From Candidatus Bathyarchaeota archaeon BA2 (GTDB taxonomy: Archaea; Thermoproteota; Bathyarchaeia; Bathyarchaeales; Bathyarchaeaceae), in NCBI GenBank assembly GCA_001399795.1, contig LIHK01000056.1:89873-153872 (forward strand): a DNA stretch of 64,000 nucleotides, read 5' to 3'. The notes under the pieces were generated by a model, which saw only the letters and a list, made by a program, of their open reading frames with translations, had not been told where the DNA came from and did no database searches. Both the position numbers and the translations under genes were made by a program. Positions 33,543 through 57,761 of the stretch are shown in pieces (the stretch's first letter is position 1; every line of letters begins with the position of its first letter).

Positions 33543-33592
33543 GTTTCATCTACCCAAAAATTGAGGAAAAATCTCCTTTATTATGGTAATGT

Positions 33593-34222: not shown

Positions 34223-34248
34223 CTATCTTTCTCCATTAAATAAGCCGA

Positions 34249-34752
34249 TTATTCCTCGCCCCCCAAAAAATCCATCCGAATGACCGGAGGGCGCTTCCCT
34301 ACTCTATCTTCAGCCGTCTCTTTGCGTTTGCTGAATCTTCCAATTTTAGTGCTAAATCCGTAGGGGAAAGTTTCATTACAAACGTCCTTTATTTTGTCCA
34401 CTTCATCGATTTCGGCTGCTTCAATCCAAAATTTAGAAACTTGAATTTTAAGTGGAATAATTTTTCCGGCTACATCGATTTTTGTTTCATAGTAAACTCG
34501 AGGGCCCTGCATCGTTATTTGAGTGATTCCCATTAATTTCTGCATTTTCCGCAGAAATTTAGCTACAGTCTCTGCGCTCGGTAGGCGGTGGGGAAAAATC
34601 TCAATTTCAGGTTTAAAGGGAAGCCCCCTTGCATGTTCCTTGGCTTCCATGAAGCGTTTCTCTTCAAGAGCTTTTTCTAAAATTCTATAAACTTTCTCAA
34701 AAGTTCTCTGAGCGTTTTCCTTTGCATCAGGTTTCGACTTAATGGTGCTCAT
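34249..34752 (-). CDS. mcrD: Methyl-coenzyme M reductase operon protein D
   Basis: EIEIFPHRLPSAETVAKFL...GPR...IPLKIQV...FPYGF..KIGRF follows the McrD pattern. Start taken at the Met forming an ATGA overlap with the upstream gene. Confidence 0.75.
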   Translation of the reverse strand: MSTIKSKPDAKENAQRTFEKVYRILEKALEEKRFMEAKEHARGLPFKPEIEIFPHRLPSAETVAKFLRKMQKLMGITQITMQGPRVYYETKIDVAGKIIPLKIQVSKFWIEAAEIDEVDKIKDVCNETFPYGFSTKIGRFSKRKETAEDRVGKRPPVIRMDFLGGEE

Positions 34753-35714: not shown

Positions 35715-36411
35715 CGTGCATCAAGTCATTGATTGGTTTCTTCCATGGTTTGTATATTTCTTCAGTTTTCTTAGGCTCTCTTTTAATTTCTTCAAACATT
35801 TCTGGCGGTATGGGCTTTGGTGGCTGAGCTAAGGTGGCTTTAACAATTTCAATCCATTCTTCCTGAATTGGATTTTCTGAGGTTATTATTGTTAGGCCGC
35901 TAGCCTCAGGTAAGAGGTGTTCTATCCTAAATGCTTCTGGAATAATTCTAGTTATTGCATCCAATATTTTTTCCATCATCTTTTCCCTCGGATCTGCAAC
36001 GATTACATTTTGAAGTTCATTTATGGTGGTTAGGTTGCGTGGAATGACGGTTTCCCATCTGTCAATTTGGGCGACATTATTTTTTCCAAAGGAGTTCCAA
36101 AGGACTTTTAACAGTTCAGGCGCGTATGTTTCGTCGTGGATTATAATGTGAATGCCATCCGTCCCCTCCTCTAGACGGGCGTAGTCTTTCATTCTGATTG
36201 GTTGACGTGGAAGACTAAGCTGGACTGAAACTGCAAAGAGGGGCTTCTTTATATCTATTAACACCCTCATCTGCTGGATTGCCTGTCCGATGACTAAATC
36301 ACTAAGTATGTACTCAGCAATAATTTTGTAAATTAAAATGCCAAAATCATGCTGGCACGTTTCATCAAGAGATTCTACAAAAATTTTCTCAGACAAATGA
36401 CAATCTCCCAA
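35707..36411 (-). CDS. mmp17: Methanogenesis marker protein 17-like
   Basis: 234 aa; assigned from its position between mmp15 and mmp7, not from a recognised motif. Confidence 0.45.
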   Translation of the reverse strand: MGDCHLSEKIFVESLDETCQHDFGILIYKIIAEYILSDLVIGQAIQQMRVLIDIKKPLFAVSVQLSLPRQPIRMKDYARLEEGTDGIHIIIHDETYAPELLKVLWNSFGKNNVAQIDRWETVIPRNLTTINELQNVIVADPREKMMEKILDAITRIIPEAFRIEHLLPEASGLTIITSENPIQEEWIEIVKATLAQPPKPIPPEMFEEIKREPKKTEEIYKPWKKPINDLMHDV

Positions 36412-36414
36412 ATG

Positions 36415-37635
36415 TTAAACGATTCCGGAGACTAGAAGGGCAGCTCCGACTGCCCCTCCATATTGAGGCATTTTTGGAACTAATATTTTAATTCCTAGAA
36501 TAGACTCCATTGCTTTAACGAGACCTGGAACAAGGGCTGTACCCCCAACTTCGATGATGGGTTGCCTTAAATCTATCTCCTGCAGTTGTGTCTCAAAAAC
36601 TTGTTGTGCTACACTATTGCAGGCAGCAGCAGCAACATCCTCTGCTAAACTTCCCCTAGCAAGAGCTGATACAAGATCTTGGATGCCAAAGATGGAGCAA
36701 AAGCTATCCATCCTAACTTTTTTATGGTTTCCCTTTAAAGCAAGCTCCCCTAACTTCGCAACATCTATGCCAAGCCTGGAAGCGGCTATTTCTAAAAATC
36801 TGCCAGAGGCTCCGGCGCATAGACCTCCCATGGTGAAGTTGTCTGGAATTCCATTGAGGAGGGTCATTACTTTGTTATCTAGTCCCCCTACGTCTATTAC
36901 GGTTGCCTCCCCCTTTTGCTTATTTGACATGAAGGCTGCACCTTTCGACGCAACAGTCAGTTCTTCTTGAATCAGGTCTGCGTTGAGTTTGCTTCCAATT
37001 AGATGCCTCCCATAACCCGTGACCCCCATTCTATGATTCCAATCGGCAGGAAGTCCAGCATTTTTCAAAGCTTCTTTCTTCACTTTTTCGGCTGACTTAA
37101 ATATGTCAGTTGTGGGGGCCCAACTTGCTCCAATTACCTCATTGTTTTCCATTACTACAGCTTTAGTCATGGATGAGCCTGAGTCAATACCCAAGGTTAG
37201 CCCCTCCTGTCTCTCGCGAGCTAAAAGAGACTTTCTCTCCACTATTGTAGCTAAAGCTTCCATTCTTGTTAGAAGTTCACCTAATTTCGGCTTTTCTGTG
37301 AAAGAATACATAACTAATGGTAACTCTGTTTTTTTCTGTAGATATTTTCTTAATGCATGTTTAGTGAGAGCTCCTTCACCACATCTAAAACATGTAACCA
37401 TGAAGATGGCGTCAGCCTCTGAAGGATCATCAATAATCGATTTTGCTCTTGCAATCATCAATTTTAGGTTTGGGCTTTCAACATCTAACCCAAATTCTTC
37501 AACTGATTTCTTGATGGATTCTAAATCAACTTCGGGGAAGACGAGTTTTGCCCCAATCATATCAGCCGCTTTTTCTAACTCTCCTTGAACGCCACTCCAC
37601 TCGGTTCCACAAGAAATTTGAGCAATCTTTATCAT
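36415..37635 (-). CDS. mmp15: Methanogenesis marker protein 15-like (BadF/BcrA/HgdC-type ATPase domain)
   Basis: 406 aa; [21 protein letters not shown] and [11 protein letters not shown] acetate/sugar-kinase-fold phosphate motifs in the C-terminal half. Confidence 0.7.
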
Positions 37636-37669
37636 GGGAAACAGTCCTTTAAACAGATCTTAATCAACA

Positions 37670-38110
37670 TTATGGTTTACTTAGATTCTTAAGGAAGTCA
37701 ACTATTTTCCTCACCATCACCTCAGCATTTTCCACGGTTGATGGATACTCAACTTTCAAAATTGGGATTTCCTTCTGTCCAAGTAGATATTTAACTAAAA
37801 TATTTGTCCGAGCGCACCCGGAGCAACCGAAGGCGAAGTCTGCGTTTTCTATGATAACGGCGGCTTCAGCTTGATCTATAAGCGGACCTAATATTCCCAT
37901 TCTACCTCTAATTCCGGATGGAGTTTCAACCGCCACATACCTTAACCCTCGAATAAGCTCTTCCTCGCTCACATTGAGAGGAGGACTATCAATTTCAGGT
38001 GTAGTAACTTTTTTCCTAATTTCCTCCATAATTACAATGGGTTCATGACCGAATCTTTCTACTAGATCTGCTAAAATTAAACTATTTGGAGGAAATACGA
38101 AGACCTTCAT
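37670..38110 (-). CDS. mmp5: Methanogenesis marker protein 5-like
   Basis: [24 protein letters not shown]...GCSGCARTN; about 146 aa; ATGA overlap with the upstream gene. Confidence 0.55.
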
Positions 38111-38553
38111 GATCTCCTTGCCCATCCATGTTTCTTAATTAGCTTTCTAATCATCTGAATAGGAACTATTTTCTCTTCTGGAGGCTTTGCAACTATGACT
38201 TTTTCTTTCGCTTCCAATGATTCAAGAGCAGCTCCTATTAAAGGGAGCAGTTGATGTTCAAATTCTATAAAGTGGAGGCCTGGTCTTGGGCCTCCACCCT
38301 TACTGGCTCGACATATTCGAATATCCCCGGGGGGATAGGCTCGAACTTTAGAAAAAATGTGATGTTTATCGACCTCCCCGATTTTTTGAAGCAACTCCTT
38401 TACCGCATTTTTCTTCCCTTCAACGATTAGGCCGAAACATGTTTCCTTCATTTTCAGCGTTAACTTTTGACTTATTAAATACTGGTAAAGGAGGGGTGGC
38501 GTGAGATCTGAATTTGGGGAAATTACAAATATACGCGCTTCTGTTTCCTTCAT
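38107..38553 (-). CDS. mmp6: Methanogenesis marker protein 6-like
   Basis: 148 aa; [12 protein letters not shown]...[19 protein letters not shown]; 4-nt overlap with the upstream gene. Confidence 0.55.
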
Positions 38554-40103
38554 TCACATTTTTCCTCCATAAAGTAAATGGTATCCCCTGCATTTTTGTT
38601 TTTTAATAAATCAAGGTCTCCAATTATTCTTCCAATTATATTTGTAGCTTCAAAAGGCTCCCCGGTTGGTCCATAGGTTTTGCTTGCTTTAAGTCTGATA
38701 CCTATTAATCCGCTGAGTTTTTTGCGGGAATTGGTAACCCCTATTGTCCCTTCTTCAACTGTATTCGATGGGGTTGTTTCAACAGATACGGATTTAATGG
38801 TCTTAATATTTCCGGGGCCTGAAAGTATCAGTGCCTCCCCAGTATTTTCAAATACATGAAGTTTACCGATTGGTGAATAAATCATGTCCGCTACCATTCT
38901 AAAGTGTAGGACGCTTCGAGGAGACTCCTCATCATGCATGTTTATATGATTGATAAATTTTGGGTTAACCCCTAGAGTGACTACAGACCCCTGGCCCTTC
39001 ACTTCCATGGTTAATTTGGGACGCTGTTCGATGATTATTGCCTGATCATTTTCATCCCCAACCCGAATATGCCTGATTCTCCGCTGAGATAAATAGTTGG
39101 CAGCTTGCCCCTGACTCATTCCCACCACCATAAGGCGTTCAGGGGTTGTTTTCACCAAGATTTTGTCACCTGGGTTTGCATGTTCCACTAACTCGACCCC
39201 ATGAACTACACTCCCCACAACGCTGTGGGATGAAGTAAAGGGGGCATCGTTTCGATAAATATAGATAGCTCCCACTTTGGTGCCTGTGTTTCTAACAGTG
39301 ATTGCCCCCTTAGGCCTGTAACCTGTATTTTCCTTTGGTAGGGGTATTCCAACGAATTTTTCATTGCAAATGAACATGCTACTTGCATGGCTCACCTTAA
39401 AAAAATCCCCAACGGTTGCTAAGAAATGTTCAGCACAGTTTGAGGTTCTCTCATCAAGGGTTGCTTTAACGTAGGTTAAAATTTGTATGTTGTCTTCTAC
39501 TGTTTTCTCCCCGATTTCTTCAGGTCTCAAAACCAATACTTTCCTACCCTCGATAGTTGATGGATATATGCGCAAAATCGAGTCGCCTCTTTCCAATTCC
39601 AAAATAACGTGGCCCCCACTAATTACTCTCCCAATTATTCCCCAATTCTCCTTCGGGGCCCCATAGACTCCTTCATGGTCCACCCAACTGAAGCATATGT
39701 AGGAAAAAGCTGGATCGAATCCTCCAAAGCTTAGAAAAACATCCCAACAATGATATTTAATCTTCTCCTTGGTTGCCTTAAGCCCTGAATGCGAGAGGTC
39801 TATTGAGCCAAATGTAACTGCCTTTTTGGTAATCCACCCAAATTCAACTCCCTGAAAATCTTGGTAATGCTTTAACCAGAAAGGGAGAAGGGAATCTTCT
39901 ACTCTAATAGAGAATTTCCCTTTGGGGGTTTCTATGAAAAAGTCTCTAGGCAGGTGAGGTTCTGAAATCGATTCTCCTCCTCTTTTTATAGCAATTATTT
40001 TGCAATCCTTTGCGTAAGGTGCTTTAATAATGTTTATAGCATCGAGAATGGTTGATTTTTCATAAACCTCTAGTTTTTCCCCGTTAACCTCTATTTTGAT
40101 CAT
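38550..40103 (-). CDS. mmp3: Methanogenesis marker protein 3-like
   Basis: About 517 aa from the Met at 40103 (MIKIEVNGEKLEV); first gene of the cluster; size matches the family. Confidence 0.55.
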   Translation of the reverse strand: MIKIEVNGEKLEVYEKSTILDAINIIKAPYAKDCKIIAIKRGGESISEPHLPRDFFIETPKGKFSIRVEDSLLPFWLKHYQDFQGVEFGWITKKAVTFGSIDLSHSGLKATKEKIKYHCWDVFLSFGGFDPAFSYICFSWVDHEGVYGAPKENWGIIGRVISGGHVILELERGDSILRIYPSTIEGRKVLVLRPEEIGEKTVEDNIQILTYVKATLDERTSNCAEHFLATVGDFFKVSHASSMFICNEKFVGIPLPKENTGYRPKGAITVRNTGTKVGAIYIYRNDAPFTSSHSVVGSVVHGVELVEHANPGDKILVKTTPERLMVVGMSQGQAANYLSQRRIRHIRVGDENDQAIIIEQRPKLTMEVKGQGSVVTLGVNPKFINHINMHDEESPRSVLHFRMVADMIYSPIGKLHVFENTGEALILSGPGNIKTIKSVSVETTPSNTVEEGTIGVTNSRKKLSGLIGIRLKASKTYGPTGEPFEATNIIGRIIGDLDLLKNKNAGDTIYFMEEKCE

Positions 40104-40353
40104 GCGTGTTCTAAGATAGAAAATGGATGAATAATAGAAAAAGGTTGTGGGCACTGACACAATCTAGCTGAATTGAACATTTCCATGCTTTAACGGGGAA
40201 GTCGATGCTGGCGAGGTACTGTGAGGCTGGTGTTAGAAGCAGGGTTGTTATGTGTAGCTTAGTGATAGTTGATACAGACTGTAACTAATACAAACCTTTT
40301 TATTTTTAGACTCTGATTTACATACTCACGAAATAAGGTTTATAACAGTTAAA

Positions 40354-45091: not shown

Positions 45092-45583
45092 CTACGGGGC
45101 TCCAAGAGACCATGCGGAGGGCCTTCCACTTCTCGGTCGTCCAGCAGCCACATCGAAAATGTCTTTTAAATCCATCGCTGCAGCTATGTTCCCTTTTATA
45201 TCACCTCTGCCACTAAAGAATGCTGACATTATATCTATTTCCCCGATCATAGACCTGGCGAGGTCGTAATACTTGAGCGTGAGTACTAAATCGGGCTCCT
45301 CACCCTCTGGTTCCCCTGGCTTCATCGAGACAGGGGCAAACATTAGGGTGAGAGGTTCGATTCCACGTTTCGGGTGCTCCGCCCTAATTACTATTAACCT
45401 AGGTGGAATTTGGGCTGCAATATCTAGCGCCTCTGGAGTTATCATAACTTTCCCGATAGTAAATCCATACATTAATTCTTCAAACATGGGTTCTTTTTCA
45501 TGTGCTTTCAGCCATTCTACTTTTTTCCACCATCCATCGGGTAACTCTTTATATTCAGCTTCTTCCGACGACAAACAAATCAC
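45092..45583 (-). CDS. SCP2-like domain protein
   Basis: DLVLTLKYYDLARSMIGEIDIMSAFFSGRGDIKGNIAAAMDLKDIF is a classical SCP2 C-terminal motif; divergent from mcrA. Confidence 0.65.
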   Translation of the reverse strand: MICLSSEEAEYKELPDGWWKKVEWLKAHEKEPMFEELMYGFTIGKVMITPEALDIAAQIPPRLIVIRAEHPKRGIEPLTLMFAPVSMKPGEPEGEEPDLVLTLKYYDLARSMIGEIDIMSAFFSGRGDIKGNIAAAMDLKDIFDVAAGRPRSGRPSAWSLGAP

Positions 45584-45676: not shown

Positions 45677-47500
45677 TTGGAGGAGAAAGAAGAAAGAAAA
45701 AAGTTTTATGACGATAAAGGTCAAATAACGGCTAGAGAGCGCGATTACGTAAGGGAACTCTACGCTGTATCCAAAAAGTTCCTTCCAACCGAAAGAAGAA
45801 GAGCAATCTACTCTAGATTAGAGAAGCAATTTGGCGCAGACCCCCTCAGCCTTGTGGATTCAGAAATGTATAAACGGGGTGGGTACAGGCAATCAAAACG
45901 TAAACAAGAATTCGTTAAGTCGGGTCGACAAATTGCCATAGAAAGAGGCATACCAGCCTATAATCGAGCTGTTGGAATTCCTCTAGGTCAAAGAATTCTT
46001 GAACCTTACGTAATCACTGGGACTGATATTACAGTAGAACAGGATGATACTCATCATGTTAACAATCCAGCCATCCAACAGATGGTGGACGACATCAAGA
46101 GAACCACAATAGTCAACATCGACATCGCCCACAGAATGCTTCAAGTAAGGGCTGGAAAAGAAGTAACTCCGGAAACAATCAACCTCTACTTAGAAACCCT
46201 TAATCATACTATGTGCGGTGGCGCCGTAGCCCAAGAACACATGTCCGAGATTAATCCCTTGCTGGTGAAAGACGCGTATGCTAAGGTGATTACTGGAAGC
46301 GACGAAATTAAAGACGCTCTAGACAGAAGGTACGTCATTGATATTGACAGACTTTTTCACCCAACCAGGGCGGAGCAACTGAAGAAAGCCCTTGGCAACA
46401 GCATCTGGGTGGTTCTTAGAACCCCGACAATAGCGATAAGGATGGCTGATGGTGACGAGGCTCATAGGTGGGCTGCTATGCAGAACACGATGGCTTTTAT
46501 CGGATCCTACGGCCTTTCGGGAGAACACGTAGTTTCCGACCTAGCCTACTCCTTCAAGCACGCCAGAGTTGTAAACATGGGTAACAAAATGTGGTACCAA
46601 AGAATGCGCGGAAGGAATGAGCCCGGCGGCTTCCCAGACGGCTACATATGCGACTTCATCCAATCCGAGCGAGACCTACCGGCAAGACCTTTCTTGGAAG
46701 TTTCAGAGGAGGATCCGGAAGAGGCTAAGAAATATTCCCGTGCTATGTACGAAGGTATCGGCGCAATCGCAGCAGTTCTTGACAATATGATATGGCTGGG
46801 ATTCTACATGAGTGGCGGTATAGGATTCTCAAACACGGTATCCGCTGCAGGTCTCGCAGGAGGCGTAATAGAAGATATCACAGAAGAGCTTATTGAAACG
46901 ACCCACAGATATATCCGAGGTATAAAGAAGGTACCACCAAAATGGGATATTGTCAGATTCATAGTCGATATGATCATACAGTACGTGATGGAATCTTATG
47001 AAAAGTTCCCAGCATTGTCCGAATTCCATTGGGGAGGAGCCCATAAGGTTTCAATCATAGGTAGTATGGGTGCTGGTGTGGCTTCACTTCTCACAGGTAG
47101 TTCAACAATGGGCATGTGGGCTGGCCACTATGCTATAGCGCTGGTTATGAAAGAGGGGTGGTTGAGAACTGGATGGGCTGGACAAGAAATCCAGGATCAC
47201 ATAGGTTTGCCGAGCCTATGTAGCTTTAGGCCTGAAGAAGGCAATTTCGCGGAATTAAGAGGTCTTAACTACCCGATGCAATCATTCAGCGCAGCCCATG
47301 GTTCTCTAAGGGATGCAGCTATATATGGAGCAATGATAGGAAGAGGTTCAGCATGGAGTGCCAGTCCAGTGGTTAAGGTAGCTTTCGCTGATCCGCATCT
47401 GGTCTTTGACTTCAAGAATCCAAGATTATGCATTGCGAAAGCGTGTATAAAGCAATTCATGCCAGCCGGAGAAAGGGGCCCGTCGCTCCCAGCGCATTAG
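45677..47500 (+). CDS. mcrA: Divergent methyl/alkyl-coenzyme M reductase alpha subunit (ACR-like McrA)
   Basis: 607 aa; GGYRQSKRKQEF, ERGIPAYN, GKEVTPETINLYLE, MRGRNEPGG, YMSGGIGFSNTVSAAG, ELRGLNYP, FMPAGERG align with McrA landmarks. TTG is the only start candidate after the in-frame stop at 45635. Confidence 0.9.
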   Translation: MEEKEERKKFYDDKGQITARERDYVRELYAVSKKFLPTERRRAIYSRLEKQFGADPLSLVDSEMYKRGGYRQSKRKQEFVKSGRQIAIERGIPAYNRAVGIPLGQRILEPYVITGTDITVEQDDTHHVNNPAIQQMVDDIKRTTIVNIDIAHRMLQVRAGKEVTPETINLYLETLNHTMCGGAVAQEHMSEINPLLVKDAYAKVITGSDEIKDALDRRYVIDIDRLFHPTRAEQLKKALGNSIWVVLRTPTIAIRMADGDEAHRWAAMQNTMAFIGSYGLSGEHVVSDLAYSFKHARVVNMGNKMWYQRMRGRNEPGGFPDGYICDFIQSERDLPARPFLEVSEEDPEEAKKYSRAMYEGIGAIAAVLDNMIWLGFYMSGGIGFSNTVSAAGLAGGVIEDITEELIETTHRYIRGIKKVPPKWDIVRFIVDMIIQYVMESYEKFPALSEFHWGGAHKVSIIGSMGAGVASLLTGSSTMGMWAGHYAIALVMKEGWLRTGWAGQEIQDHIGLPSLCSFRPEEGNFAELRGLNYPMQSFSAAHGSLRDAAIYGAMIGRGSAWSASPVVKVAFADPHLVFDFKNPRLCIAKACIKQFMPAGERGPSLPAH

Positions 47501-48013: not shown

Positions 48014-48583
48014 TTAGGCTTTAAACCGTTTAGTCAAGCTCGTCATTACCGGAACTAATTTTATTCCTGTCGCCAAATCTCCTTCCAGTTTGAACTGACC
48101 TGCTATGTATCCCTTAACTGGATCAACATCACCTATCAACAGTCCTATCAAAGTCTTCGCATCTGACGAAACCTTGAGATCAGGGGCATCCAAAAGGGCT
48201 GAGCCACCAGAAATTTTTCCACCACTCAGTTTAAAATGACCCTTTAAGGGGCTGTCGGTGGCTTCAAAGTTAACCTTTATTTCCCCTGCATTTACCACTT
48301 TTTTCTTAACTTCCTCGTCTTTCTCAACGAGTATGCCTACACCTTCCCACAAAACGTCCGTGAATGCTGCTGATGCTTCAGGTGCCTCGGTCACGAATTT
48401 TCTAACGTCGATCGATCTTAAGTTATTTACTAACCTCAATGCTAAATCCGGCATTGCCTCCATCAGGTTTCCAACGCCAAATGCTTTTACTCTCTCCACT
48501 AAAGGAGGGAGAGCAGTTTTCAGCTCATTTTCTGACATCTTGAGCGCTTTGTCTACGTCTTTCTTCAATTCTTCCGCACTCAT
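48014..48583 (-). CDS. SCP2-like domain protein (189 aa)
   Basis: DLKVSSDAKTLIGLLIGDVDPVKGYIAGQFKLEGDLATGIKLVPVM is an SCP2 C-terminal motif. Confidence 0.7.
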   Translation of the reverse strand: MSAEELKKDVDKALKMSENELKTALPPLVERVKAFGVGNLMEAMPDLALRLVNNLRSIDVRKFVTEAPEASAAFTDVLWEGVGILVEKDEEVKKKVVNAGEIKVNFEATDSPLKGHFKLSGGKISGGSALLDAPDLKVSSDAKTLIGLLIGDVDPVKGYIAGQFKLEGDLATGIKLVPVMTSLTKRFKA

Positions 48584-48776
48584 TACTCATCACCAGACTT
48601 CTCATCACCAGACTTTTTTTTCTTTATGAGGTCTTAAATAAAAGATTTTTGGCATAACAAAAACAAAACATAGCCTTAGCCTGAATGTTAAAATATCAAT
48701 TCATTTTGGGACAAAAATTGGAAAAAAGTTTATGGCCGTTAAAACTCTTGAAAAACTTTCTATATTCTTATAGTTT

Positions 48777-50141
48777 TTATGTGAGCGTACTATGTCTAGT
48801 ATCCTTATAGAATTCCTTTAATATAATCGTGATTAACCTAATTTCTTCTCCTTGCTTTTTTACCTCTCGCAAAAATGTGTTGTATAGTTCATTTGTGATG
48901 GGTAGGGGTCGAGACCTAACCATTGAAGCTGTGAGCATTAAATCGAATGCTCTTGCCTCTGCAACCGTTAATTTATGTAAAACGCCGAGTTTACTGGAAT
49001 CTTTAATGAATACAGGGTTCTCCTCCCGAGATAATTGGACAACTTCCCCGGCTAGTAAGGTTCCCGGTAAAGGGTCCGCTATGCTTATAGAATAATCATC
49101 CAACATTAGTTCCTCCACCAACTCTTTGGTTTCAGCATAATCTTCGTCTGTCTCCCCAGGGTATCCAACGATGAAAGCCCCCGCCACCTCCAACTTGGCT
49201 TCGCGGGCTCTTTTAACTCCCTCCATAATTTTGTCAACCGTTATTCCTTTCCTCATTTTAGCAAGTATTCTGTTGCTCCCAGATTCCATTCCATAAATAA
49301 CAAATCCAATCGTATACTTTCTAACAGCTTTTAACATAGCTTCATTAACCATGTCTACCCTCAGGTCGGGAACTGAAAGATTGTAGGGTCCCGTTATTCG
49401 GCTAACTTCTTTTAGCATGGTGATAAATGCTTCATCATTTAATTTAGACCCCTTACAGCCATATTGATTTGATGTACCCCCAAAAAGCGCTATTTTTTGT
49501 GCTCCAGCTTCTACGAAGGCTTTTACCTCCACAACTATGTCATTTACTGGACGCGATCGGACTTCACGACCGAAGAAGCATGGAACTTGACAGAAACTAC
49601 AATTCCCTAAACAGCCCCTATGCGTCTCTATATAAACATTAGCCCCTCGAATGTTTTGCCGTCCAATATTTTGAGGAATCTCCGGTAAGGCTCGGCCATC
49701 TAAACTGGCTGGCTTCCGGGGATGGGTCTTAACCATCTCGTTATCATGTTTAAACGATATCCCGTTAACTTCCTCTAAATTCCTCTTGGTTTTGAGGGCT
49801 TCTATGAGTTCGGGGGCTGTTTCTTCTCCCTCACCAATTACAACCACATCTATTTCCGGCAAGATTCTGAAGACAAGTTCGGAAATTTGGCTTATGGGAC
49901 CGCCAACTATGATTAAAGGTTTCAAGCCTACTTTAAGCTTTGAAACTAACTCCCTTGCATTTAAGAGATGAGAAACGGAGGTTAAACTTAAACCGATAAT
50001 ATCCATGCCCATTACGTTTTGTGGGCGAAGATTATTGAATAAACTAATTTGGTGTCCTCCTTTTTTTAATATACCACCAATTAACATTGCTCCATAAGAG
50101 AATACTTCTGGTGAAATTATTGCAATTTTCACCCTTCCCAT
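48777..50141 (-). CDS. B12-binding-domain radical SAM enzyme (class B)
   Basis: N-terminal Rossmann-like B12 domain (KIAIISPE...LIIVGGP...VVIGEGE), then HRGCLGNCSFCQVP (CX3CX2C). Confidence 0.8.
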   Translation of the reverse strand: MGRVKIAIISPEVFSYGAMLIGGILKKGGHQISLFNNLRPQNVMGMDIIGLSLTSVSHLLNARELVSKLKVGLKPLIIVGGPISQISELVFRILPEIDVVVIGEGEETAPELIEALKTKRNLEEVNGISFKHDNEMVKTHPRKPASLDGRALPEIPQNIGRQNIRGANVYIETHRGCLGNCSFCQVPCFFGREVRSRPVNDIVVEVKAFVEAGAQKIALFGGTSNQYGCKGSKLNDEAFITMLKEVSRITGPYNLSVPDLRVDMVNEAMLKAVRKYTIGFVIYGMESGSNRILAKMRKGITVDKIMEGVKRAREAKLEVAGAFIVGYPGETDEDYAETKELVEELMLDDYSISIADPLPGTLLAGEVVQLSREENPVFIKDSSKLGVLHKLTVAEARAFDLMLTASMVRSRPLPITNELYNTFLREVKKQGEEIRLITIILKEFYKDTRHSTLT

Positions 50142-50214: not shown

Positions 50215-51969
50215 TTGTCCCTTAAATGGGTGACTTTAATCATGACGCGTAGAGACACCGCAGTTCGGGTAGTTAATTTATCTAAAAGCTATACTCTCGA
50301 GTGTGGGGAGAAAGTTCGAGTTCTAGAAAATATCTCCTTTAATCTTTATCGAAACGAAATTTTAGGATTTATTGGCAGAAGTGGTGGGGGTAAAACAACA
50401 CTTATCCGAGTGCTTAGGGGTGTTGAGCCCTTTGATGAGGGGGAAATTTGGATTAACAATGTTCACCTCACTCCTAAGGCATCAGAAGATGATATAAGGA
50501 AAGTTCGCGAAACAACTGCCATACATCTTCAACGCTCTTTTGGCCTTTGGGCGGCAAGCACCCTAGAAAATGTGATGAGACGACTATATGCCTTAGAGAC
50601 AGGAGACGAAACTGCTCCACTCCCATACGACGAGTCCGACTATAGGAGACTTGAGGAGGAGAGTATGAGGATACTTAAAGCAGTAATGTTAGCTCAAAAA
50701 GCTAATCATCCCGCACATACGCTAAGCGGCGGGGAAAAGCAAAGACTGGTGTTGGCAAGGCAACTTGCAATGGCCAGCCGAAAGCCAATAACATTACTAT
50801 TAGACGAGCCTGTTACAATGTCTTGTCTGGCAACAAAACAAGTAGCCTTGGACTGGATTAAAAAAATACGGGATCAACTTGACGTATCCATAATTATTGC
50901 TTCCCATCTCCCCTCCATCCTCAAATATCTAGCGGATAGGGCGATTTGGCTGGAAAAGAAGATTATTGCAGTTGGCAAACCCAAGGAGATCATCGACAAA
51001 TTTCTCGCCCAAATGGAGGTACCCGTAAGTTTGAAAACCGTACCTAGATCTAAAAAGAAGATCATTAAGGTTCAAGACTTAACCCAAAGCTACCGTGCTG
51101 AAATATCTGAGGATTCATTTGAAATGAAAAACTTGAATTTTGAGGTTTACAATGGGGAAATCCTAGTTATAATTGGTCCATCTGGAGTAGGAAAAACTGT
51201 TTTAATTCGTTTACTCTCAGGATTGGAGCTTCCTGAAAAAGGTAAGGTACTTTATAAGCTGGAAAATAAAAGGGTGAACATCGCAAAATTAGGCTATGAA
51301 GCCGTGATGACCCGTAGAAGGATCGGCGTGGTTCATCAAGAATTAGATTTGGCCTACGGCGCTACAGTCAAGGATTTAGCTTTGGCGAGGCTTGGATTAA
51401 AGGGTGAAAAAGCGTTAATTATGGCCAAAGAAAAGGCGAAGGAGTTGGGGTTGAAGGAGGAGATTGTGGATTCTATCTATCGGTTGTGGGATTACCCAGA
51501 ACGGGAAATGATTAAAAAATTTGAGAAACTGGGATTAGAAAAAGAGGTGGTAAAGAGTCTTTTCCCAATTGCCCCCTGGGAAGCCGTATCAGAAATGTTT
51601 GAACCGATGTTTAGACTATTCAATTTATCACCCGATCTGTTAAATAGGAAATCTCACGAATTGTCGGGTGGGGAGAAAATAAGAGTTGCCATCGCTCTAG
51701 AACTCCTCTCTAGGCCAGAGGTCCTCTTTTTAGATGAACCTTTCGGTGACTTAGATCCGATAACTCTTAGAAACTTGTCAAACGTTCTAAAGTTTGTCAA
51801 CAATGAGTTTAATGTAACCATAGTCCTTGTGAGTCATCATGTGGATTTTGTTAAGGAAGTTGCCCATCGAGCAATACTCATGAGGGAAGGAGAAATAGTG
51901 GAAGAAGGAGACCCGATAAAACTTTGTGAACGCTTTATCGGGGAAAGCCAAGCTCAGTTTATTAACTAA
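50215..51969 (+). CDS. Double-ABC ATPase, component-A2-like paralog (lacks the Zn-ribbon insert)
   Basis: Two ABC cassettes: GRSGGGKTT / LSGGEKQRLVLARQL / LLLDEP and GPSGVGKTV / LSGGEKIRVAIALEL / LFLDEP. The A2-like IIASHLPSILKYLADRAIWLE is present. Confidence 0.65.
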   Translation: MSLKWVTLIMTRRDTAVRVVNLSKSYTLECGEKVRVLENISFNLYRNEILGFIGRSGGGKTTLIRVLRGVEPFDEGEIWINNVHLTPKASEDDIRKVRETTAIHLQRSFGLWAASTLENVMRRLYALETGDETAPLPYDESDYRRLEEESMRILKAVMLAQKANHPAHTLSGGEKQRLVLARQLAMASRKPITLLLDEPVTMSCLATKQVALDWIKKIRDQLDVSIIIASHLPSILKYLADRAIWLEKKIIAVGKPKEIIDKFLAQMEVPVSLKTVPRSKKKIIKVQDLTQSYRAEISEDSFEMKNLNFEVYNGEILVIIGPSGVGKTVLIRLLSGLELPEKGKVLYKLENKRVNIAKLGYEAVMTRRRIGVVHQELDLAYGATVKDLALARLGLKGEKALIMAKEKAKELGLKEEIVDSIYRLWDYPEREMIKKFEKLGLEKEVVKSLFPIAPWEAVSEMFEPMFRLFNLSPDLLNRKSHELSGGEKIRVAIALELLSRPEVLFLDEPFGDLDPITLRNLSNVLKFVNNEFNVTIVLVSHHVDFVKEVAHRAILMREGEIVEEGDPIKLCERFIGESQAQFIN

Positions 51970-53526: not shown

Positions 53527-55119
53527 TCAAAATCCAGTTGAAATCAAAGCCTTTTTCTCTGTTTCCACCATGATGTTTACAACATCTTCCGGGTCGCCAA
53601 TAGTTTCTATTTTACCATTTCTCATGTAAGCAGCTCGATCGCACGCTATCCTGATGAAGTCAATATCATGGCTTATGATTAAATATGTTTGCCCTAAAGC
53701 GTCTCTCGCGTTTCTAATGCTCCTCGCAATCTCAACCCGCGTTATTGGATCCGCAGTGCCAGTCGGCTCATCCAACAGCACGATCTTAGGTTCCTTCATA
53801 AGAGAACGGGCGATACATACTCTATGTCTTTCTCCCTCACTAATCTGGTCTGGATATTTGTAAAGCAAGTATTCTATTTCTTTATCTGTAAAGTTTACCC
53901 CCCTCAAAACCTCGTAGGCCTTTTTGGTCTTTTGTTCTTCTGGCAAGGGTTCTTCCACAGCGCCAACAAGGTTCTCTAGAATTATTCTTCCGGCGTGCAA
54001 CGTGTACTCTTGGTGTAGAATATCCATTTTTGATGCAATCATTCCTCTTTCATCAGGTCCAGGAATACTCATGTCAAACCATTCTTCTCCTCTCTTCACC
54101 AGTATTTTGCCAGTGGTTGTAGGCTTTATGCCCATCATCATGTGCGCCAACGTAGTCTTTCCGCTTCCACTAAGACCCACAATTCCGAATATTTCACCTT
54201 CATATATTTTAAGATCAACGCCGTCCACTGCCTTCACGAGACCTCTATCGAATGTGTAATACCATTTCTTTACACCCTCACACTCCATTATCGGGTTGGT
54301 TCCTCTATACCTTTCAACTTGCACTTTTTCCACTTTCTCCATAAAAGCATTGTAGACATCTTCGGATTTTCCCATCACAGTTAACTCTCCGTTTTCTAGT
54401 AGGGCAGCCTCTTCAGATAACGCTTTAATAGCTTCTGGCCAATGCGAGGTTATGACAAGAGTTATGTGATCCCTATTGACGGCTTCCCTAATCACTTCAT
54501 GCACCACTTCGCTGGTGATCGGGTCCAAGGTGCCTGTGGGCTCGTCTGCAAGGAAAAGCAACGGATTCCTCGCTAAGCACATGGAAAATATGACTCTTTG
54601 CTTTTCGCCTCCGGAGAGGTCTCTTCCCAGATGAAGAAGCCGATGATCCAGCTTGACATGTGATATAAGCTCCGCAGCCCTCATGTCAATTTCCCCCTCG
54701 GGGTATCCGACGCTGATCAAAATTCTTCTGACGTTTTCTATGGCTGGAAATTCGCTGTATAGAGAGAAGCCTCGTTGAGGCATGATCGCGATCCTGTCAT
54801 GTAGCGTCAAGGACAGTCTAGTTTGCTTCTTCAACTCCTCCCAGTAATCAACCTCTCTAAACTCCATCGTCGTGGAGCACTTGGGGCATGGTTCCTCCTT
54901 CTTGGAAGGATACTCGACCCAGTGACAGTTAGGGCAATATGAAAGCCTGAAGATAATTTGTCCGTATGTCGGTTCATATTCAAGGATTCCCCTAATTGAC
55001 TGCATGATAATAGATTTCCCGTGACCGCTTTTGCCTAGTAGTCCAAAGGTTCCCCCTTCCCTAATTGTGAATGATATGTTTTTGATTATGGGGAGCCCTC
55101 TGACGAACTCTTTTGTCAA
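53527..55119 (-). CDS. atwA: Methyl-coenzyme M reductase system component A2 (double-ABC ATPase)
   Basis: GKSGHGKSIIMQSIRGILEYEPTYGQIIF, Zn-ribbon insert CPNC...CPKC, DLSGGEKQRV, FLADEPTGTLDP, ITSHWPEAI, and a second cassette GLSGSGKTT. Confidence 0.8.
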   Translation of the reverse strand: MTKEFVRGLPIIKNISFTIREGGTFGLLGKSGHGKSIIMQSIRGILEYEPTYGQIIFRLSYCPNCHWVEYPSKKEEPCPKCSTTMEFREVDYWEELKKQTRLSLTLHDRIAIMPQRGFSLYSEFPAIENVRRILISVGYPEGEIDMRAAELISHVKLDHRLLHLGRDLSGGEKQRVIFSMCLARNPLLFLADEPTGTLDPITSEVVHEVIREAVNRDHITLVITSHWPEAIKALSEEAALLENGELTVMGKSEDVYNAFMEKVEKVQVERYRGTNPIMECEGVKKWYYTFDRGLVKAVDGVDLKIYEGEIFGIVGLSGSGKTTLAHMMMGIKPTTTGKILVKRGEEWFDMSIPGPDERGMIASKMDILHQEYTLHAGRIILENLVGAVEEPLPEEQKTKKAYEVLRGVNFTDKEIEYLLYKYPDQISEGERHRVCIARSLMKEPKIVLLDEPTGTADPITRVEIARSIRNARDALGQTYLIISHDIDFIRIACDRAAYMRNGKIETIGDPEDVVNIMVETEKKALISTGF

Positions 55120-55549: not shown

Positions 55550-56941
55550 TTGTCAAACCTGTCTTTAAAATATAAAGATACATTAGACCTATACGATGAT
55601 CATTCCAATTGTATTGCAAAAGAAGTGCCGCTGCAAGCTCTCTCACCGTTATATAACCCCTATATGAGGGAGGTTTTAAATCTTTTCAAAAGAACAGCTT
55701 TTATTGACCTAGCCAAGCTGGAGCAATATGTAAAGTCTGGAAGAGCAGGCTGGGAAACAGTCGTTGGGCAAGATGAGATTCAAATGCCTTGGTACGGTAG
55801 GGACCTGCCTATGGTTGAGCGTTCAGAGGAAATAGCTGAGAGAATAAAAGAGAAAATCGCAAAATTCGATGACGGAGAGGAGGAGCTTGTGAAGCCTGTA
55901 GCAGGTGGCAAGCTAATCATTGTTAAGATACCGAGAAGAATGATGGAAGTTTCAGCCAGCCGCGACCCACCGCTCACATGGACGATGGTGGCTTTATGTC
56001 AAGCTATATCTGAAACTTTCAATTTGAATCCTGAAACTGACCCGGATGGCTGCAACATGGTGAGAGGAGCCATCTTTGGAAGGTACCCTCAATCCCCTGA
56101 GTTGCCTCCTGGTGGACCTGTTTTCGGACTTTTGAGGCAAAGCAACATCGTGGACGGTTTGGGGAGCGGGTTTAGAGGAATAATGGTGAATCACATTGTG
56201 GCCCTAGTTAATAAAAGAACTATGGACGGTGTTGCTTTAGCCACAATTTTGGAACAAGGTGCACAGTGGGAGATGGGTAACGTGTTGGGATGGTTTGAAA
56301 GATATAATCTCCTTGCGTCAGCCTACCAAGGCTTCAACGCAAACAATCTTGTTCTAGACCTCGTTCTGGAGAACAGGGAGGGAACTATAGGAGACGTTGC
56401 ACGTAGCACGGTGAAAAGGGCTGTAGAGGACGGGGTCATAAAAGTCAAAAAAACTTTTCCATCGGGGTACAAGGTCTATAGTACGAGTGACTATCCTCTT
56501 TGGAACGCATATGGTTGCGCTGGAGTGCTAGCTGCGGTAATAGTTAACGTTGGAGCGAGTAGAGCTGCACAAAGTGTTTCAACCGTTACAGGTTATTTTG
56601 GCGACCACTTGATTTTTGAGACTGGGGGGTTACCTGACCCTGACACTGGCAGAATTGAAGGCACAGGCATAGGCTATGCGTTCTACACCCATTCCATATA
56701 TGGCGGAGCGGGTCCTGGTGCGTATACTTTAGACCATGTTGTCGTAAGGAGTACCTCAGGTTTCTTAACTCCATGTGTCGTTGCAGGTATGTGTCTCGAT
56801 TCTGGAACTCAACTTTTCTCTCCTGAAATGACCTCCAGTGCTTTGTTCAAGATAAGAGATCACATGCCGTTACTCAACGAGCCGTTGAAAAAAGTGGCTG
56901 AGGCAGCTGAAAAGGTTAAAGGAGAATTAACAAAGGCATAG
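55550..56941 (+). CDS. mcrB: Methyl/alkyl-coenzyme M reductase beta subunit
   Basis: YKDTLDLYDD at the N-terminus; HSIYGGAGPGAYTLDHVVVRSTSGFLTPCVVAGMCLDSGTQLFSPE parallels the canonical HSIYGGGGPG...CVAAA..DAGTQMFSPE; TTG start. Confidence 0.9.
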   Translation: MSNLSLKYKDTLDLYDDHSNCIAKEVPLQALSPLYNPYMREVLNLFKRTAFIDLAKLEQYVKSGRAGWETVVGQDEIQMPWYGRDLPMVERSEEIAERIKEKIAKFDDGEEELVKPVAGGKLIIVKIPRRMMEVSASRDPPLTWTMVALCQAISETFNLNPETDPDGCNMVRGAIFGRYPQSPELPPGGPVFGLLRQSNIVDGLGSGFRGIMVNHIVALVNKRTMDGVALATILEQGAQWEMGNVLGWFERYNLLASAYQGFNANNLVLDLVLENREGTIGDVARSTVKRAVEDGVIKVKKTFPSGYKVYSTSDYPLWNAYGCAGVLAAVIVNVGASRAAQSVSTVTGYFGDHLIFETGGLPDPDTGRIEGTGIGYAFYTHSIYGGAGPGAYTLDHVVVRSTSGFLTPCVVAGMCLDSGTQLFSPEMTSSALFKIRDHMPLLNEPLKKVAEAAEKVKGELTKA

Positions 56942-56942
56942 T

Positions 56943-57761
56943 TTGAAGGTGATGCACGTGGCAAGTGAAAAGAGAGAGGAAAAAAGTGAATTCGAGCCTC
57001 AAATCTACCCTGGACAGGATGAGGTGTCAGAAAGAAGGAGAAAGCTTTGGGATAAGCGTCGACGCCTAACAAAGTATCGAGACGTACCAGACGATGACAT
57101 AACCCGCCTTCTGGGTCATAGGCCGGTTGGAGCACTATATGTAAGTGTCCATCCACCTCTTGATGAACTTATAGAACCATACGACCCGATAAAAAGTCTA
57201 GTTGCTCCGACACCAGGGGCGAGAGCAGGGGATAGGATAAGATTTGCTCAGTTTTCAGATAGTTTTTGGCATCCTCCAATAACTCCCTATGCTAGGCAAA
57301 GACTCTATTTTAATAGACTCAGAGGTGTCGATGTTGTCACCTATAGCGGCAGAACAATGTTAGAGATGAGGGAGCGGGATTTAGAAACAGCTGTAAAGCC
57401 TCTAATCGAAACCGAAGTATTCAACCCAGCTAGAACAAGTTTGAAAGGAATAACTATTCACGGACACTCTTTAAGGCTTGATGAAGATGGCCTAATGTTC
57501 GACGCTAGGCGAAGATTCGTTTACGATAAAGAGACAGGCGAGGTAGTTTACATTAAGGATCAATTCGGCAAAGTTTTAGACAGGCCAGTGCCAGTCGGGC
57601 GCCCCCCCTCAGAAGAGGAATGTAGAAAACTGAGTATAACCTACAGTTGGGATACCCGACAATTTAAATCCAGAACCGAAGTAATAGAGCTAATCTCAAG
57701 AGTTGCAAATATGAGGGTATTGGCAGGATTCAATCCCGAATCAATCAACGAGGAGATTTAA
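56943..57761 (+). CDS. mcrG: Methyl/alkyl-coenzyme M reductase gamma subunit
   Basis: PQIYPGQDEVSERRRK, FAQFSDSFWHPP, MLEMRERDLE, GHSLRLDEDGLMFD align with McrG. The true start may be ATG 56952 or GTG 56958. Confidence 0.9.
   Translation: MKVMHVASEKREEKSEFEPQIYPGQDEVSERRRKLWDKRRRLTKYRDVPDDDITRLLGHRPVGALYVSVHPPLDELIEPYDPIKSLVAPTPGARAGDRIRFAQFSDSFWHPPITPYARQRLYFNRLRGVDVVTYSGRTMLEMRERDLETAVKPLIETEVFNPARTSLKGITIHGHSLRLDEDGLMFDARRRFVYDKETGEVVYIKDQFGKVLDRPVPVGRPPSEEECRKLSITYSWDTRQFKSRTEVIELISRVANMRVLAGFNPESINEEI

What the first reader, a model, noticed from the sequence alone, without database searches (positions are those of the whole stretch)
48777..50141. Class-B (B12-binding) radical SAM enzyme adjacent to mcrA and co-directional with an SCP2 gene
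The gene has an N-terminal B12-type Rossmann domain and a CLGNCSFC radical SAM motif. It is followed 193 bp downstream on the same strand by SCP2-like 48014-48583.

Known MCR post-translational C-methylations are installed by cobalamin-dependent radical SAM enzymes. This McrA differs at some canonical modification sites, so a dedicated modifier is plausible.

The alternative is an enzyme acting on an unactivated carbon of a lipid or alkyl substrate presented by the SCP2 partner.
Basis: inference. Interest (0 to 1): 0.55.

Follow-up and report, generated by a model that had tools for sequence, protein, structure and literature searches.

The report
MCR-maturation methyltransferase lacking its usual glutamine target
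This gene belongs to a known enzyme family (MgmA/QCMT) that adds a methyl group to a glutamine in the active site of methane-type reductases, but here and in related alkane-type reductases that glutamine is a conserved histidine, so the enzyme probably makes a modification not yet described.

Summary
ORF 48777-50141(-) encodes a 454-aa cobalamin-type radical SAM protein carrying CLGNCSFC, and an SCP2 gene lies 193 bp downstream. The window is from Candidatus Bathyarchaeota archaeon BA2, where the gene is deposited as 'hypothetical protein'.

The protein is a full-length member of the characterised MgmA/QCMT family, the MCR glutamine C-alpha-methyltransferase. It scores 543.6 bits against TIGR04014 (cut-off 360) and E 1.6e-118 against the crystallised 9CCB. 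Relatives occur in mcr/acr-bearing archaea and often sit beside mcr genes. The SCP2/lipid alternative does not: SCP2 genes follow the alkyl-CoM reductase (ACR) mcrA, not this enzyme.

The twist is the target residue. In the neighbouring McrA, the canonical 'GGSQR' reads 'GGAHK' (His456). His is present in 31 of 32 McrAs of this ACR clade. A relative places the enzyme as first gene of an operon with a His-type mcrBGA. The enzyme is under purifying selection (dN/dS 0.17) and its active site is essentially unchanged.

Published QCMTs tolerate many side chains at the target position. The best reading is therefore C-alpha-methylation of His456 (2-methylhistidine). This is unproven. Rivals are another ACR residue or F430.

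The parts
48777..50141 (-). MgmA/QCMT-family cobalamin-dependent (class B) radical SAM methyltransferase, 454 aa
   Evidence: TIGR04014 scores 543.6 bits against a cut-off of 360, over aa 5-442 of a 434-position model. PDB 9CCB matches at E 1.6e-118. The protein is 100% identical to BA2 AOA66_1763.
49779..50009 (-). N-terminal Rossmann-type B12-binding domain (aa 45-121)
   Evidence: Pfam B12-binding at E 5.7e-9 and Radical_SAM_N2 at E 2.9e-6.
49590..49613 (-). CX3CX2C [4Fe-4S]/SAM motif CLGNCSFC (aa 177-184)
   Evidence: C177, C181 and C184 are invariant in 25 homologues.
49119..49631 (-). Radical SAM core (aa 171-341)
   Evidence: Pfam PF04055 at E 3.3e-25.
48584..48776 (-). 193-bp spacer between the enzyme gene and SCP2b. 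It holds four T5-6 runs within 113 nt of the stop codon, a TTTATTTAA box 50 nt before the SCP2b ATG, and a duplicated AGTCTGGTGATGAG.
   Evidence: Reading these as an archaeal terminator and promoter is inference from the sequence only.
48014..48583 (-). SCP2b, an SCP2-fold protein of 189 aa. It is probably a separate transcription unit and part of the ACR/acyl-metabolism neighbourhood.
   Evidence: Pfam SCP2. Only 8 homologues were found.
45677..47500 (+). Divergent McrA (ACR-type alpha subunit), 607 aa, the presumed substrate protein
   Evidence: Pfam MCR_alpha_N and MCR_alpha. TIGR03256 scores 515 bits, below its 768 cut-off. 100% identical to BA2 McrA.
47042..47044 (+). Codon CAT for His456, at the position of 2-methyl-Gln400 of M. 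marburgensis McrA ('FHWGGAHKVS' against 'HFGGSQRAAV')
45092..45583 (-). SCP2a, an SCP2-fold protein of 163 aa, divergent from mcrA. Its homologues lie directly beside His-type mcrA in four other loci.
50215..51969 (+). Divergently transcribed double ABC ATPase, a divergent paralogue of MCR component A2 (likely start ATG 50242). It is a conserved partner of the enzyme gene in Bathyarchaeia-like and Hadarchaeales loci.
   Evidence: TIGR03269 scores 281.7 bits, below its 517 cut-off. Synteny is seen in L001, L002, L003, L004, L082 and L087.
53527..55119 (-). Canonical MCR component A2 (AtwA)
   Evidence: TIGR03269 scores 638 bits against a cut-off of 517.
55550..57761 (+). mcrB (55550-56941) and mcrG (56943-57761), separated from mcrA
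   Evidence: TIGR03257 at 415 bits and TIGR03259 at 277 bits.
32694..40160 (-). MCR maturation and activation gene block: Mmp8, McrC, McrD, Mmp7, Mmp17, Mmp15, Mmp5, Mmp6, Mmp3
   Evidence: In Hadarchaeales the enzyme gene is the first gene of this block.

Best explanation
The gene encodes a cobalamin-dependent radical SAM C-methyltransferase of the MgmA/QCMT family. It acts on the alpha subunit of the organism's MCR-like alkyl-coenzyme M reductase before folding. By homology the mechanism is as follows. The [4Fe-4S] cluster bound by C177, C181 and C184 cleaves one SAM to a 5'-deoxyadenosyl radical. That radical abstracts the C-alpha hydrogen of the target residue in an extended McrA peptide. 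Methylcobalamin, held in the N-terminal Rossmann domain, donates the methyl group. A second SAM then remethylates cob(I)alamin. In BA2 the residue at the canonical target position is His456, not Gln. The most likely product is therefore 2-(C-alpha)-methylhistidine next to F430. Shown here: family membership, catalytic motifs, linkage to mcr and maturation genes, the Gln-to-His replacement and its conservation, and purifying selection. Inferred: the chemistry (from characterised homologues) and the identity of the modified residue.
For: Family membership:
- TIGR04014 equivalog scores 543.6 bits against a cut-off of 360; the next family scores 160 bits.
- Crystallised MgmA 9CCB matches at E 1.6e-118 over aa 5-442.
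- The protein is 47-48% identical to annotated Methanothermobacter, Methanobacterium and Methanoculleus enzymes.

Linkage to mcr:
- 229 species genomes carry relatives. The best 80 are all from mcr/acr lineages, apart from one probably mis-binned contig.
- About 30 of those 80 lie beside mcr genes.
- In L087 (84% identical) the order is enzyme-mcrB-mcrG-mcrA, with a His-type McrA.
- In Hadarchaeales the gene heads the Mmp3...McrC-McrD maturation operon.

Target site:
- All 17 canonical McrAs beside the enzyme read GGSQR.
- BA2, L001, L005, L083 and L087 read GG[AV]H[KR].
- 31 of 32 McrAs at least 52% identical to BA2 have His.

Function retained:
- dN/dS is 0.165 against L001.
- 59 positions are invariant, including the cluster cysteines.
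- Only one position (Q226 against Leu) separates the Bathyarchaeia/Hadarchaeales group from canonical enzymes.

Feasibility:
- Purified QCMTs methylate Asn, Ala, Gly, Arg, Glu, Asp and Tyr placed at the target position, and only at that position (PMC13469106).
- The flanking recognition context is kept: Glu at -7, an aromatic residue at -4, GG at -3/-2, and a basic residue at +1.
Against: - No mass-spectrometric or structural data exist for any His-type ACR.
- His was not among the residues tested in vitro.
- ANME-1-type mcr operons also carry a neighbouring homologue although their site is Ala or Val. As far as I recall, the ANME-1 crystal structure 3SQG was not reported to have a modified Val419. 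Homologues may therefore have other targets.
- In a Helarchaeota locus the homologue follows F430-biosynthesis genes.
- Two His-type ACR operons (L089, L090) have no homologue within 10 kb.
- His-type ACRs have Ser or Thr at +3. In methanogens that feature anticorrelates with MgmA.
- The BA2 MAG is incomplete, so a second Gln-type McrA cannot be excluded.
Confidence: 0.5

Rival explanations
1. The enzyme is an ACR-maturation methyltransferase but modifies another residue or carbon of the ACR, in the alpha, beta or gamma subunit, rather than the His at the canonical position.
For: New C-methylations at other MCR positions keep being found: 3-methyl-Ile in ECR, and 3(S)-methyl-His on the gamma subunit of ANME-2d MCR, whose installing enzyme is unknown (PMC12413448). 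ANME-1-type loci keep a homologue although the site is Ala or Val.
Against: Characterised QCMTs modify only the canonical position, even when its side chain is changed. The active site is practically unchanged, with one discriminating position. The GG-x-X-[KR] context is retained around His456.
Confidence: 0.15
2. The enzyme methylates coenzyme F430 or a precursor rather than the protein. This would yield a modified F430 that the His substitution accommodates.
For: In Helarchaeota locus L088 the homologue directly follows cfbE-, cfbD-, cfbC- and cfbB-like genes. Lemaire and Wagner link substitutions at alpha400 to F430 modifications (PMC9118554). The enzymes that make dimethyl-F430 and methylthio-F430 are unknown (PMC10702137).
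Against: Every characterised member acts on McrA peptides and has a wide peptide-binding cleft (PMC11796369). The sequence is almost unchanged from peptide-acting members. The GoM-Arc1 homologue, from the lineage with dimethyl-F430, groups with canonical Gln-linked enzymes. In L087 the gene is operonic with mcrBGA, not with cfb genes.
Confidence: 0.12
3. The enzyme is an ordinary glutamine C-methyltransferase. It serves a second, Gln-bearing McrA encoded elsewhere in the incompletely assembled genome.
For: Some lineages carry several ACR copies, including ones with Gln at the site (Helarchaeota 'LWSGIQR'). The MAG is incomplete.
Against: Only one BA2-labelled McrA cluster appears among all McrA homologues found. 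The window holds one mcrA, one mcrB and one mcrG. In L087 the enzyme is co-operonic with a His-type mcrBGA. In L001, L005 and L083 it lies beside a His-type mcrA.
Confidence: 0.08
4. The enzyme modifies an unactivated carbon of a lipid or alkyl substrate handed over by the SCP2 protein encoded downstream.
For: The SCP2 gene is co-directional and 193 bp downstream. The same order is seen in the closest relative, L001.
Against: Scores against lipid B12 radical SAM families are far below threshold: TIGR04072 77 against 360, HpnR 64 against 650, HpnJ 95 against 578. SCP2b is absent from 80 of the 81 genome loci holding the enzyme. SCP2b homologues occur without the enzyme, for example between two acyl-CoA dehydrogenases. 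The spacer carries T-runs and a TATA-like box, which suggests separate transcription (inference).
Confidence: 0.02
5. The gene is a decaying relic, retained after the target glutamine was lost, and has no current function.
For: The target Gln is absent.
Against: The ORF is intact. dN/dS is 0.165. All catalytic residues are invariant. The gene is conserved across Bathyarchaeia-like, Hadarchaeales and other ACR lineages at 50-89% identity.
Confidence: 0.03

Closest known systems
MgmA / QCMT, the MCR glutamine C-alpha-methyltransferase (NCBIfam TIGR04014; M. thermophilus QCMT, PMC9401015; M. marburgensis MgmA, PDB 9CCB, PMC11796369)
   Same: It has the same domain order: B12 Rossmann domain, radical SAM core with CX3CX2C, then a C-terminal domain. 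It is alignable over its full length and about 47-48% identical to annotated Methanothermobacter, Methanobacterium and Methanoculleus family members. It scores above the equivalog cut-off. It is linked to mcr and MCR-maturation genes, and it occurs only in mcr/acr-bearing archaea.
   Different: The cognate McrA has His456, not Gln, at the target position. It has Ser, not Ala or Gly, at +3. The enzyme belongs to a separate ACR-linked clade in a neighbour-joining tree. It is paired with a divergent A2-like ABC ATPase. Activity is untested.
Mmp10, the MCR arginine C5-methyltransferase (cobalamin-dependent radical SAM)
   Same: It also performs cobalamin-dependent radical SAM C-methylation of an sp3 carbon of McrA, and it also belongs to the mcr neighbourhood in many genomes. 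The Arg271 equivalent (Arg309) is present in this McrA.
   Different: It has a different architecture and family. Mmp10 is not among the best family matches of this protein and it is strictly substrate-specific. No Mmp10 gene was found in this window.
TIGR04013 (MJ_1487 family), an uncharacterised archaeal B12/radical SAM paralogue
   Same: It is the nearest paralogous family, with the same domain types.
   Different: It scores only 160.7 bits against a cut-off of 251, so this protein is not a member.
MiaB/RimO methylthiotransferases and lipid-modifying B12 radical SAM enzymes (HpnR, HpnJ, TIGR04072)
   Same: They share a radical SAM core. RimO and MiaB are the next-best solved structures.
   Different: Scores are 64-127 bits against cut-offs of 251-650. 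There is no second cluster domain and no TRAM domain match.

Membership tests
MgmA/QCMT (TIGR04014) | Full-length match to the curated equivalog model above its trusted cut-off | tested here: met
   543.6 bits against a cut-off of 360, over aa 5-442 and model positions 1-432 of 434.
MgmA/QCMT (TIGR04014) | N-terminal cobalamin-binding Rossmann domain followed by a radical SAM core with a single CX3CX2C cluster motif | tested here: met
   Pfam B12-binding and Radical_SAM. CLGNCSFC lies at aa 177-184. The cysteines are invariant in 25 homologues.
MgmA/QCMT (TIGR04014) | Sequence similarity over the whole length to an experimentally characterised member | tested here: met
   PDB 9CCB matches at E 1.6e-118, aa 5-442 against 23-447. 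The structure is described in PMC11796369.
MgmA/QCMT (TIGR04014) | Occurrence restricted to mcr/acr-encoding archaea, often clustered with mcr genes | tested here: met
   The best 80 of 229 genome hits are all from such lineages, except one probably mis-binned contig. About 30 of the 80 lie beside mcr genes. The window itself holds mcrA, mcrB, mcrG and maturation genes.
MgmA/QCMT (TIGR04014) | Cognate McrA carries the target glutamine (Gln400 of M. marburgensis, motif GGSQR) | tested here: not met
   The neighbouring McrA has His456 in 'GGAHK'. His is found in 31 of 32 McrAs of the clade. Only one BA2 McrA is on record.
MgmA/QCMT (TIGR04014) | McrA has Ala or Gly at target +3 in organisms encoding MgmA (84 of 85 methanogen MCRs, PMC11796369) | tested here: not met
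   BA2 has Ser459. His-type ACRs have Ser or Thr at +3. The rule is quoted.
MgmA/QCMT (TIGR04014) | Catalysis: C-alpha methylation through methylcobalamin with consumption of two SAM | not testable with these tools
   This requires anaerobic enzymology.
Lipid-modifying B12 radical SAM enzymes (TIGR04072 ladderane-type, HpnR, HpnJ) | Match above the family cut-off | tested here: not met
   77.3 against 360, 64.1 against 650, and 95.5 against 577.6 bits.
Mmp10 (MCR arginine methyltransferase) | Match to the methanogenesis marker 10 model or architecture | tested here: not met
   It is not among the 25 best of 35 NCBIfam matches, and the top match is TIGR04014. No PDB match to Mmp10 was found at E up to 0.001.

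The most novel reading that the evidence does not exclude
Alkyl-CoM reductases of the Bathyarchaeia/Hadarchaeales/Helarchaeales type carry a C-alpha-methylated histidine (2-methylhistidine) beside F430. To my knowledge this is not a described natural protein modification. It would be installed by an ACR-linked clade of MgmA/QCMT enzymes that travelled with the ACR genes between phyla. The same logic would predict 2-methylalanine or 2-methylvaline, or an F430 modification, in ANME-1.
Probability: 0.4. Interest if true: 0.65.

Novelty: new variant of a known kind. Interest (0 to 1): 0.45.

Why it matters
ACRs activate ethane to long-chain alkanes anaerobically, yet only one (ethane-specific) structure exists and none of the Bathyarchaeia-type enzymes has been purified. 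Knowing which maturation enzymes and modifications they need is a practical prerequisite for heterologous production, a stated goal of the field (PMC9081873, PMC9118554). This locus gives a concrete, cheap test: one peptide and one enzyme. It could add a new modification to the MCR/ACR repertoire, and it shows that the database name 'glutamine C-methyltransferase' is probably wrong for a whole clade. If the prediction fails, the enzyme becomes a candidate for the still unassigned C-methylations of MCR or F430.

Tried and rejected
- The search of 50%-identity representatives with McrA gave only about 11 full-length clusters. That was too coarse to study the target site, so I used the 90%-cluster search instead.
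- The look-up of the BA2 SCP2b paralogue P0302 found no record.
- I looked for clade-specific active-site changes that could signal a new specificity. Only one position emerged (Q226 against Leu), so sequence alone shows no remodelling.
- I looked for a PqqD-like peptide-binding partner, as seen beside the enzyme in L087, L088 and L006. None is present in the window.
- I checked the one apparently bacterial hit, L007 'Deferrimicrobium'. It has 37% GC, a TrmB-type neighbour, and clusters with Helarchaeota enzymes, so it is most likely a mis-binned archaeal contig.
- Literature searches for SCP2 with ACR, and for MgmA with Bathyarchaeota, returned nothing.
- I rejected the idea that SCP2b and SCP2a are recent duplicates. 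They share only 24% identity over 45 aa.
- I did not run structure prediction.

Full report
**Observation.** The ORF at 48777-50141 on the minus strand exists and encodes 454 aa. It carries CLGNCSFC at aa 177-184, nt 49590-49613. It has a Pfam Radical_SAM core (E 3.3e-25) and an N-terminal B12-binding domain (E 5.7e-9, above the gathering score). An SCP2-fold ORF (48014-48583, minus strand) follows after exactly 193 bp. The McrA gene (45677-47500, plus strand) is convergent with it and lies 1.3 kb away, beyond the SCP2 gene. 'Adjacent' is therefore only loosely true. The protein is 100% identical to 'hypothetical protein AOA66_1763' of Candidatus Bathyarchaeota archaeon BA2, and the McrA is the BA2 McrA. 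That identifies the window.

**What it is.** The protein matches NCBIfam TIGR04014, 'methyl-coenzyme M reductase glutamine C-methyltransferase', over its whole length. It scores 543.6 bits against a cut-off of 360, and the next family (TIGR04013) reaches only 160 bits. It also matches PDB 9CCB at E 1.6e-118 over aa 5-442. This family is experimentally characterised.
- QCMT from Methanoculleus thermophilus methylates the C-alpha of the Gln in 'DHFGGSQRAGV' through methylcobalamin, consuming two SAM (PMC9401015).
- MgmA from M. marburgensis does the same in vivo, and its structure shows a wide cleft for an extended McrA peptide (PMC11796369).
- Lipid-modifying B12 radical SAM families score far below threshold.

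**Distribution and context.** A scan of one genome per species found relatives in 229 genomes. The best 80 come from Hadarchaeales, Helarchaeota, Methanobacteriales, Methanomicrobiales, ANME-2, Methanophagales and Methanoliparum. The single apparent exception is a 6.4-kb, 37%-GC contig that clusters with Helarchaeota and is probably mis-binned. About 30 of the 80 loci have the gene beside mcr genes.

The window itself is an MCR/ACR maturation island. It holds the following genes:
- Mmp8, McrC, McrD, Mmp7, Mmp17, Mmp15, Mmp5, Mmp6 and Mmp3 at 32.7-40.2 kb
- GlcD/HdrD-like genes
- mcrA flanked by two SCP2 genes
- the enzyme
- a divergent A2-like ABC ATPase
- canonical A2
- mcrB and mcrG
- aldehyde:ferredoxin oxidoreductase genes

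In Hadarchaeales the enzyme gene is the first gene of the Mmp3...McrC-McrD block. In the 84%-identical relative L087 it is the first gene of enzyme-mcrB-mcrG-mcrA.

**The unexpected point.** I aligned the BA2 McrA with a Methanothermobacter McrA whose numbering matches M. marburgensis MCR I (H257, R271, Q400, G445, D450, C452). The equivalents of His257, Arg271, Gly445 and Asp450 are kept. Cys452 is Ile509. The methylglutamine position is His456: 'FHWGGAHKVS' against 'QFGGSQRAAV', with no gaps nearby.

Every canonical McrA that lies beside a homologue of the enzyme has GGSQR (17 loci). The ACR-type McrAs beside it in L001, L005, L083 and L087 all have His. Among McrAs at least 52% identical to BA2, labelled Bathyarchaeota, Hodarchaeota and Helarchaeota, 31 of 32 have His. 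More distant ACRs have Ile, Leu, Glu or Gln.

Lemaire and Wagner had already noticed that this position is Ile, His or Glu in some ACRs, and they wondered about F430 modifications (PMC9118554). I found no paper connecting this with retention of MgmA/QCMT. The MgmA paper analysed methanogens only and mentions TACK homologues in one sentence.

**Is the enzyme still working, and on what?** Several results indicate that it is functional.
- The ORF is intact.
- dN/dS against the L001 orthologue is 0.165.
- 59 positions, including the three cluster cysteines, are invariant across 25 diverse homologues.
- In a neighbour-joining tree (midpoint-rooted, no support values), enzymes from ACR-bearing lineages (Bathyarchaeia-like, Hadarchaeales, the L005/L083 lineage, Asgard) form one clade. 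It is separate from the Gln-linked groups and from an ANME-1 group.
- Only one alignment position consistently separates the Bathyarchaeia/Hadarchaeales group from canonical enzymes: Gln226 against Leu. The catalytic machinery and cleft have therefore not been rebuilt.

That fits the recent finding that purified QCMTs accept Asn, Ala, Gly, Arg, Glu, Asp and Tyr at the target position and modify only that position. His was not tested (PMC13469106). The sequence context around His456 keeps Glu at -7, an aromatic residue at -4, Gly-Gly at -3/-2, and a basic residue at +1. My best explanation is therefore C-alpha-methylation of His456. This is an inference and not shown.

**Evidence that cuts the other way.**
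- ANME-1-type mcrBGA operons, whose site is Ala (or Val419 in 3SQG), also have a homologue next door. As far as I recall, no modification of that residue was reported for the ANME-1 structure.
- A Helarchaeota homologue sits directly after cfbE-, cfbD-, cfbC- and cfbB-like F430 biosynthesis genes. The enzymes that modify F430 in ANME-1 and ethane oxidisers are unknown.
- Two His-type ACR operons lack the gene within 10 kb.
- His-type ACRs have Ser or Thr at +3, a feature that in methanogens goes with absence of MgmA.
- A second, Gln-type McrA in the unassembled part of BA2 cannot be formally excluded, although only one BA2 McrA is on record.

**The SCP2 question.**
- SCP2b (48014-48583) has only eight homologues in the large protein collection.
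- It accompanies the enzyme only in the closest relative.
- Elsewhere it lies between two acyl-CoA dehydrogenases, or near GlcD/HdrD and maturation genes without the enzyme.
- The 193-bp spacer has four T5-6 runs soon after the enzyme's stop codon, and a TTTATTTAA box 50 nt before the SCP2b start. This suggests separate transcription, though that is inference.
- The other SCP2 gene (SCP2a, 45092-45583) has homologues directly beside His-type mcrA in L087, L090, L005 and L083.

SCP2 genes therefore belong with the ACR and alkyl/acyl metabolism, not with the methyltransferase. The lipid-substrate reading is rejected.

**Verdict.** This is a real gene and a clear MgmA/QCMT-family MCR/ACR maturation enzyme (confidence about 0.9). 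The family is already known. The cognate target glutamine is missing and is replaced by a clade-conserved histidine, so the deposited family name does not describe what it does here. I rate it a new variant of a known kind, with moderate interest. It yields a sharp, inexpensive experimental prediction.

Noticed in passing
window 45092-45583 (-); also L087:10665-11168, L090:11798-12313, L005:4231-4680, L083:13328-13879: An SCP2-fold protein family (SCP2a) lies directly beside His-type ACR mcrA in five loci from different lineages. Further SCP2 genes lie near ACR operons in L089 and L090. No paper combining SCP2 and alkyl-coenzyme M reductase was found. This could be an alkane or alkyl-thioether carrier for the ACR.
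   Followed up: partly
window 50215-51969 (+), likely start 50242: This is a second, divergent paralogue of MCR component A2 (281 bits against a cut-off of 517), in addition to canonical A2 at 53527-55119. It is divergently paired with the methyltransferase gene in L001, L002, L003, L004, L082 and L087. It may be an ACR-specific activation or maturation ATPase.
   Followed up: partly
L051, L071, L073, L074 (Methanophagales/ANME-1-type loci): An MgmA/QCMT homologue lies directly beside mcrBGA, although the McrA target position is Ala (Val419 in PDB 3SQG). Its substrate is unexplained. The enzyme that makes 17^2-methylthio-F430 in ANME-1 is also still unknown.
   Followed up: partly
L088:5302-11353 (Helarchaeota): The MgmA homologue is the next gene after cfbE-, cfbD-, cfbC- and cfbB-like F430 biosynthesis genes. 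It is followed by PNPOx-like and PqqD-like (peptide-recognition type) genes. PqqD-like genes also lie near the homologue in L087 and L006, but none is in the window.
   Followed up: partly
window 45677-47500 versus 55550-57761: mcrA is separated by about 8 kb from mcrB-mcrG. It appears inserted, together with SCP2 genes, two ORFs without family matches (43088-43546, 43560-45032) and GlcD/HdrD-like genes, between the methyltransferase gene and the Mmp3 operon. Those two are contiguous in Hadarchaeales. Weak homologues of the 490-aa ORF flank the ACR genes in L083.
   Followed up: partly
window 47042-47053 and alignment: Besides Gln400 to His, the active-site Tyr333 of canonical McrA has no tyrosine counterpart ('GFSNTVS'), and Phe443 is Trp500. 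The +3 residue is Ser459. The environment that methylglutamine is thought to organise in MCR is therefore rebuilt in this ACR.
   Followed up: no
window 58366-59217 and 59349-61232 (+); 22265-24211 (+): Aldehyde:ferredoxin oxidoreductase genes lie just downstream of mcrG. The first looks like an N-terminal fragment, with a full copy following. A third AOR lies at 22 kb. AOR genes also sit near the enzyme in L001 and L082.
   Followed up: no
window 48586-48614 (-): A tandem duplication of AGTCTGGTGATGAG lies immediately upstream of the SCP2b start codon. It gives two GGTGAT Shine-Dalgarno-like elements.
   Followed up: no
L084:4580-7964: Two B12/radical SAM genes lie in tandem near mcrB-mcrG. 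One is an MgmA homologue (52% identical) and the other is only 25% identical. They sit next to duplicated peptidase U32/DUF5402 pairs.
   Followed up: no
L007 (GTDB record labelled Candidatus Deferrimicrobium sp.): This 6.4-kb contig has 37% GC. It carries an MgmA homologue that clusters with Helarchaeota and has a TrmB-type regulator next to it. It is probably a mis-binned archaeal contig in a bacterial MAG.
   Followed up: yes
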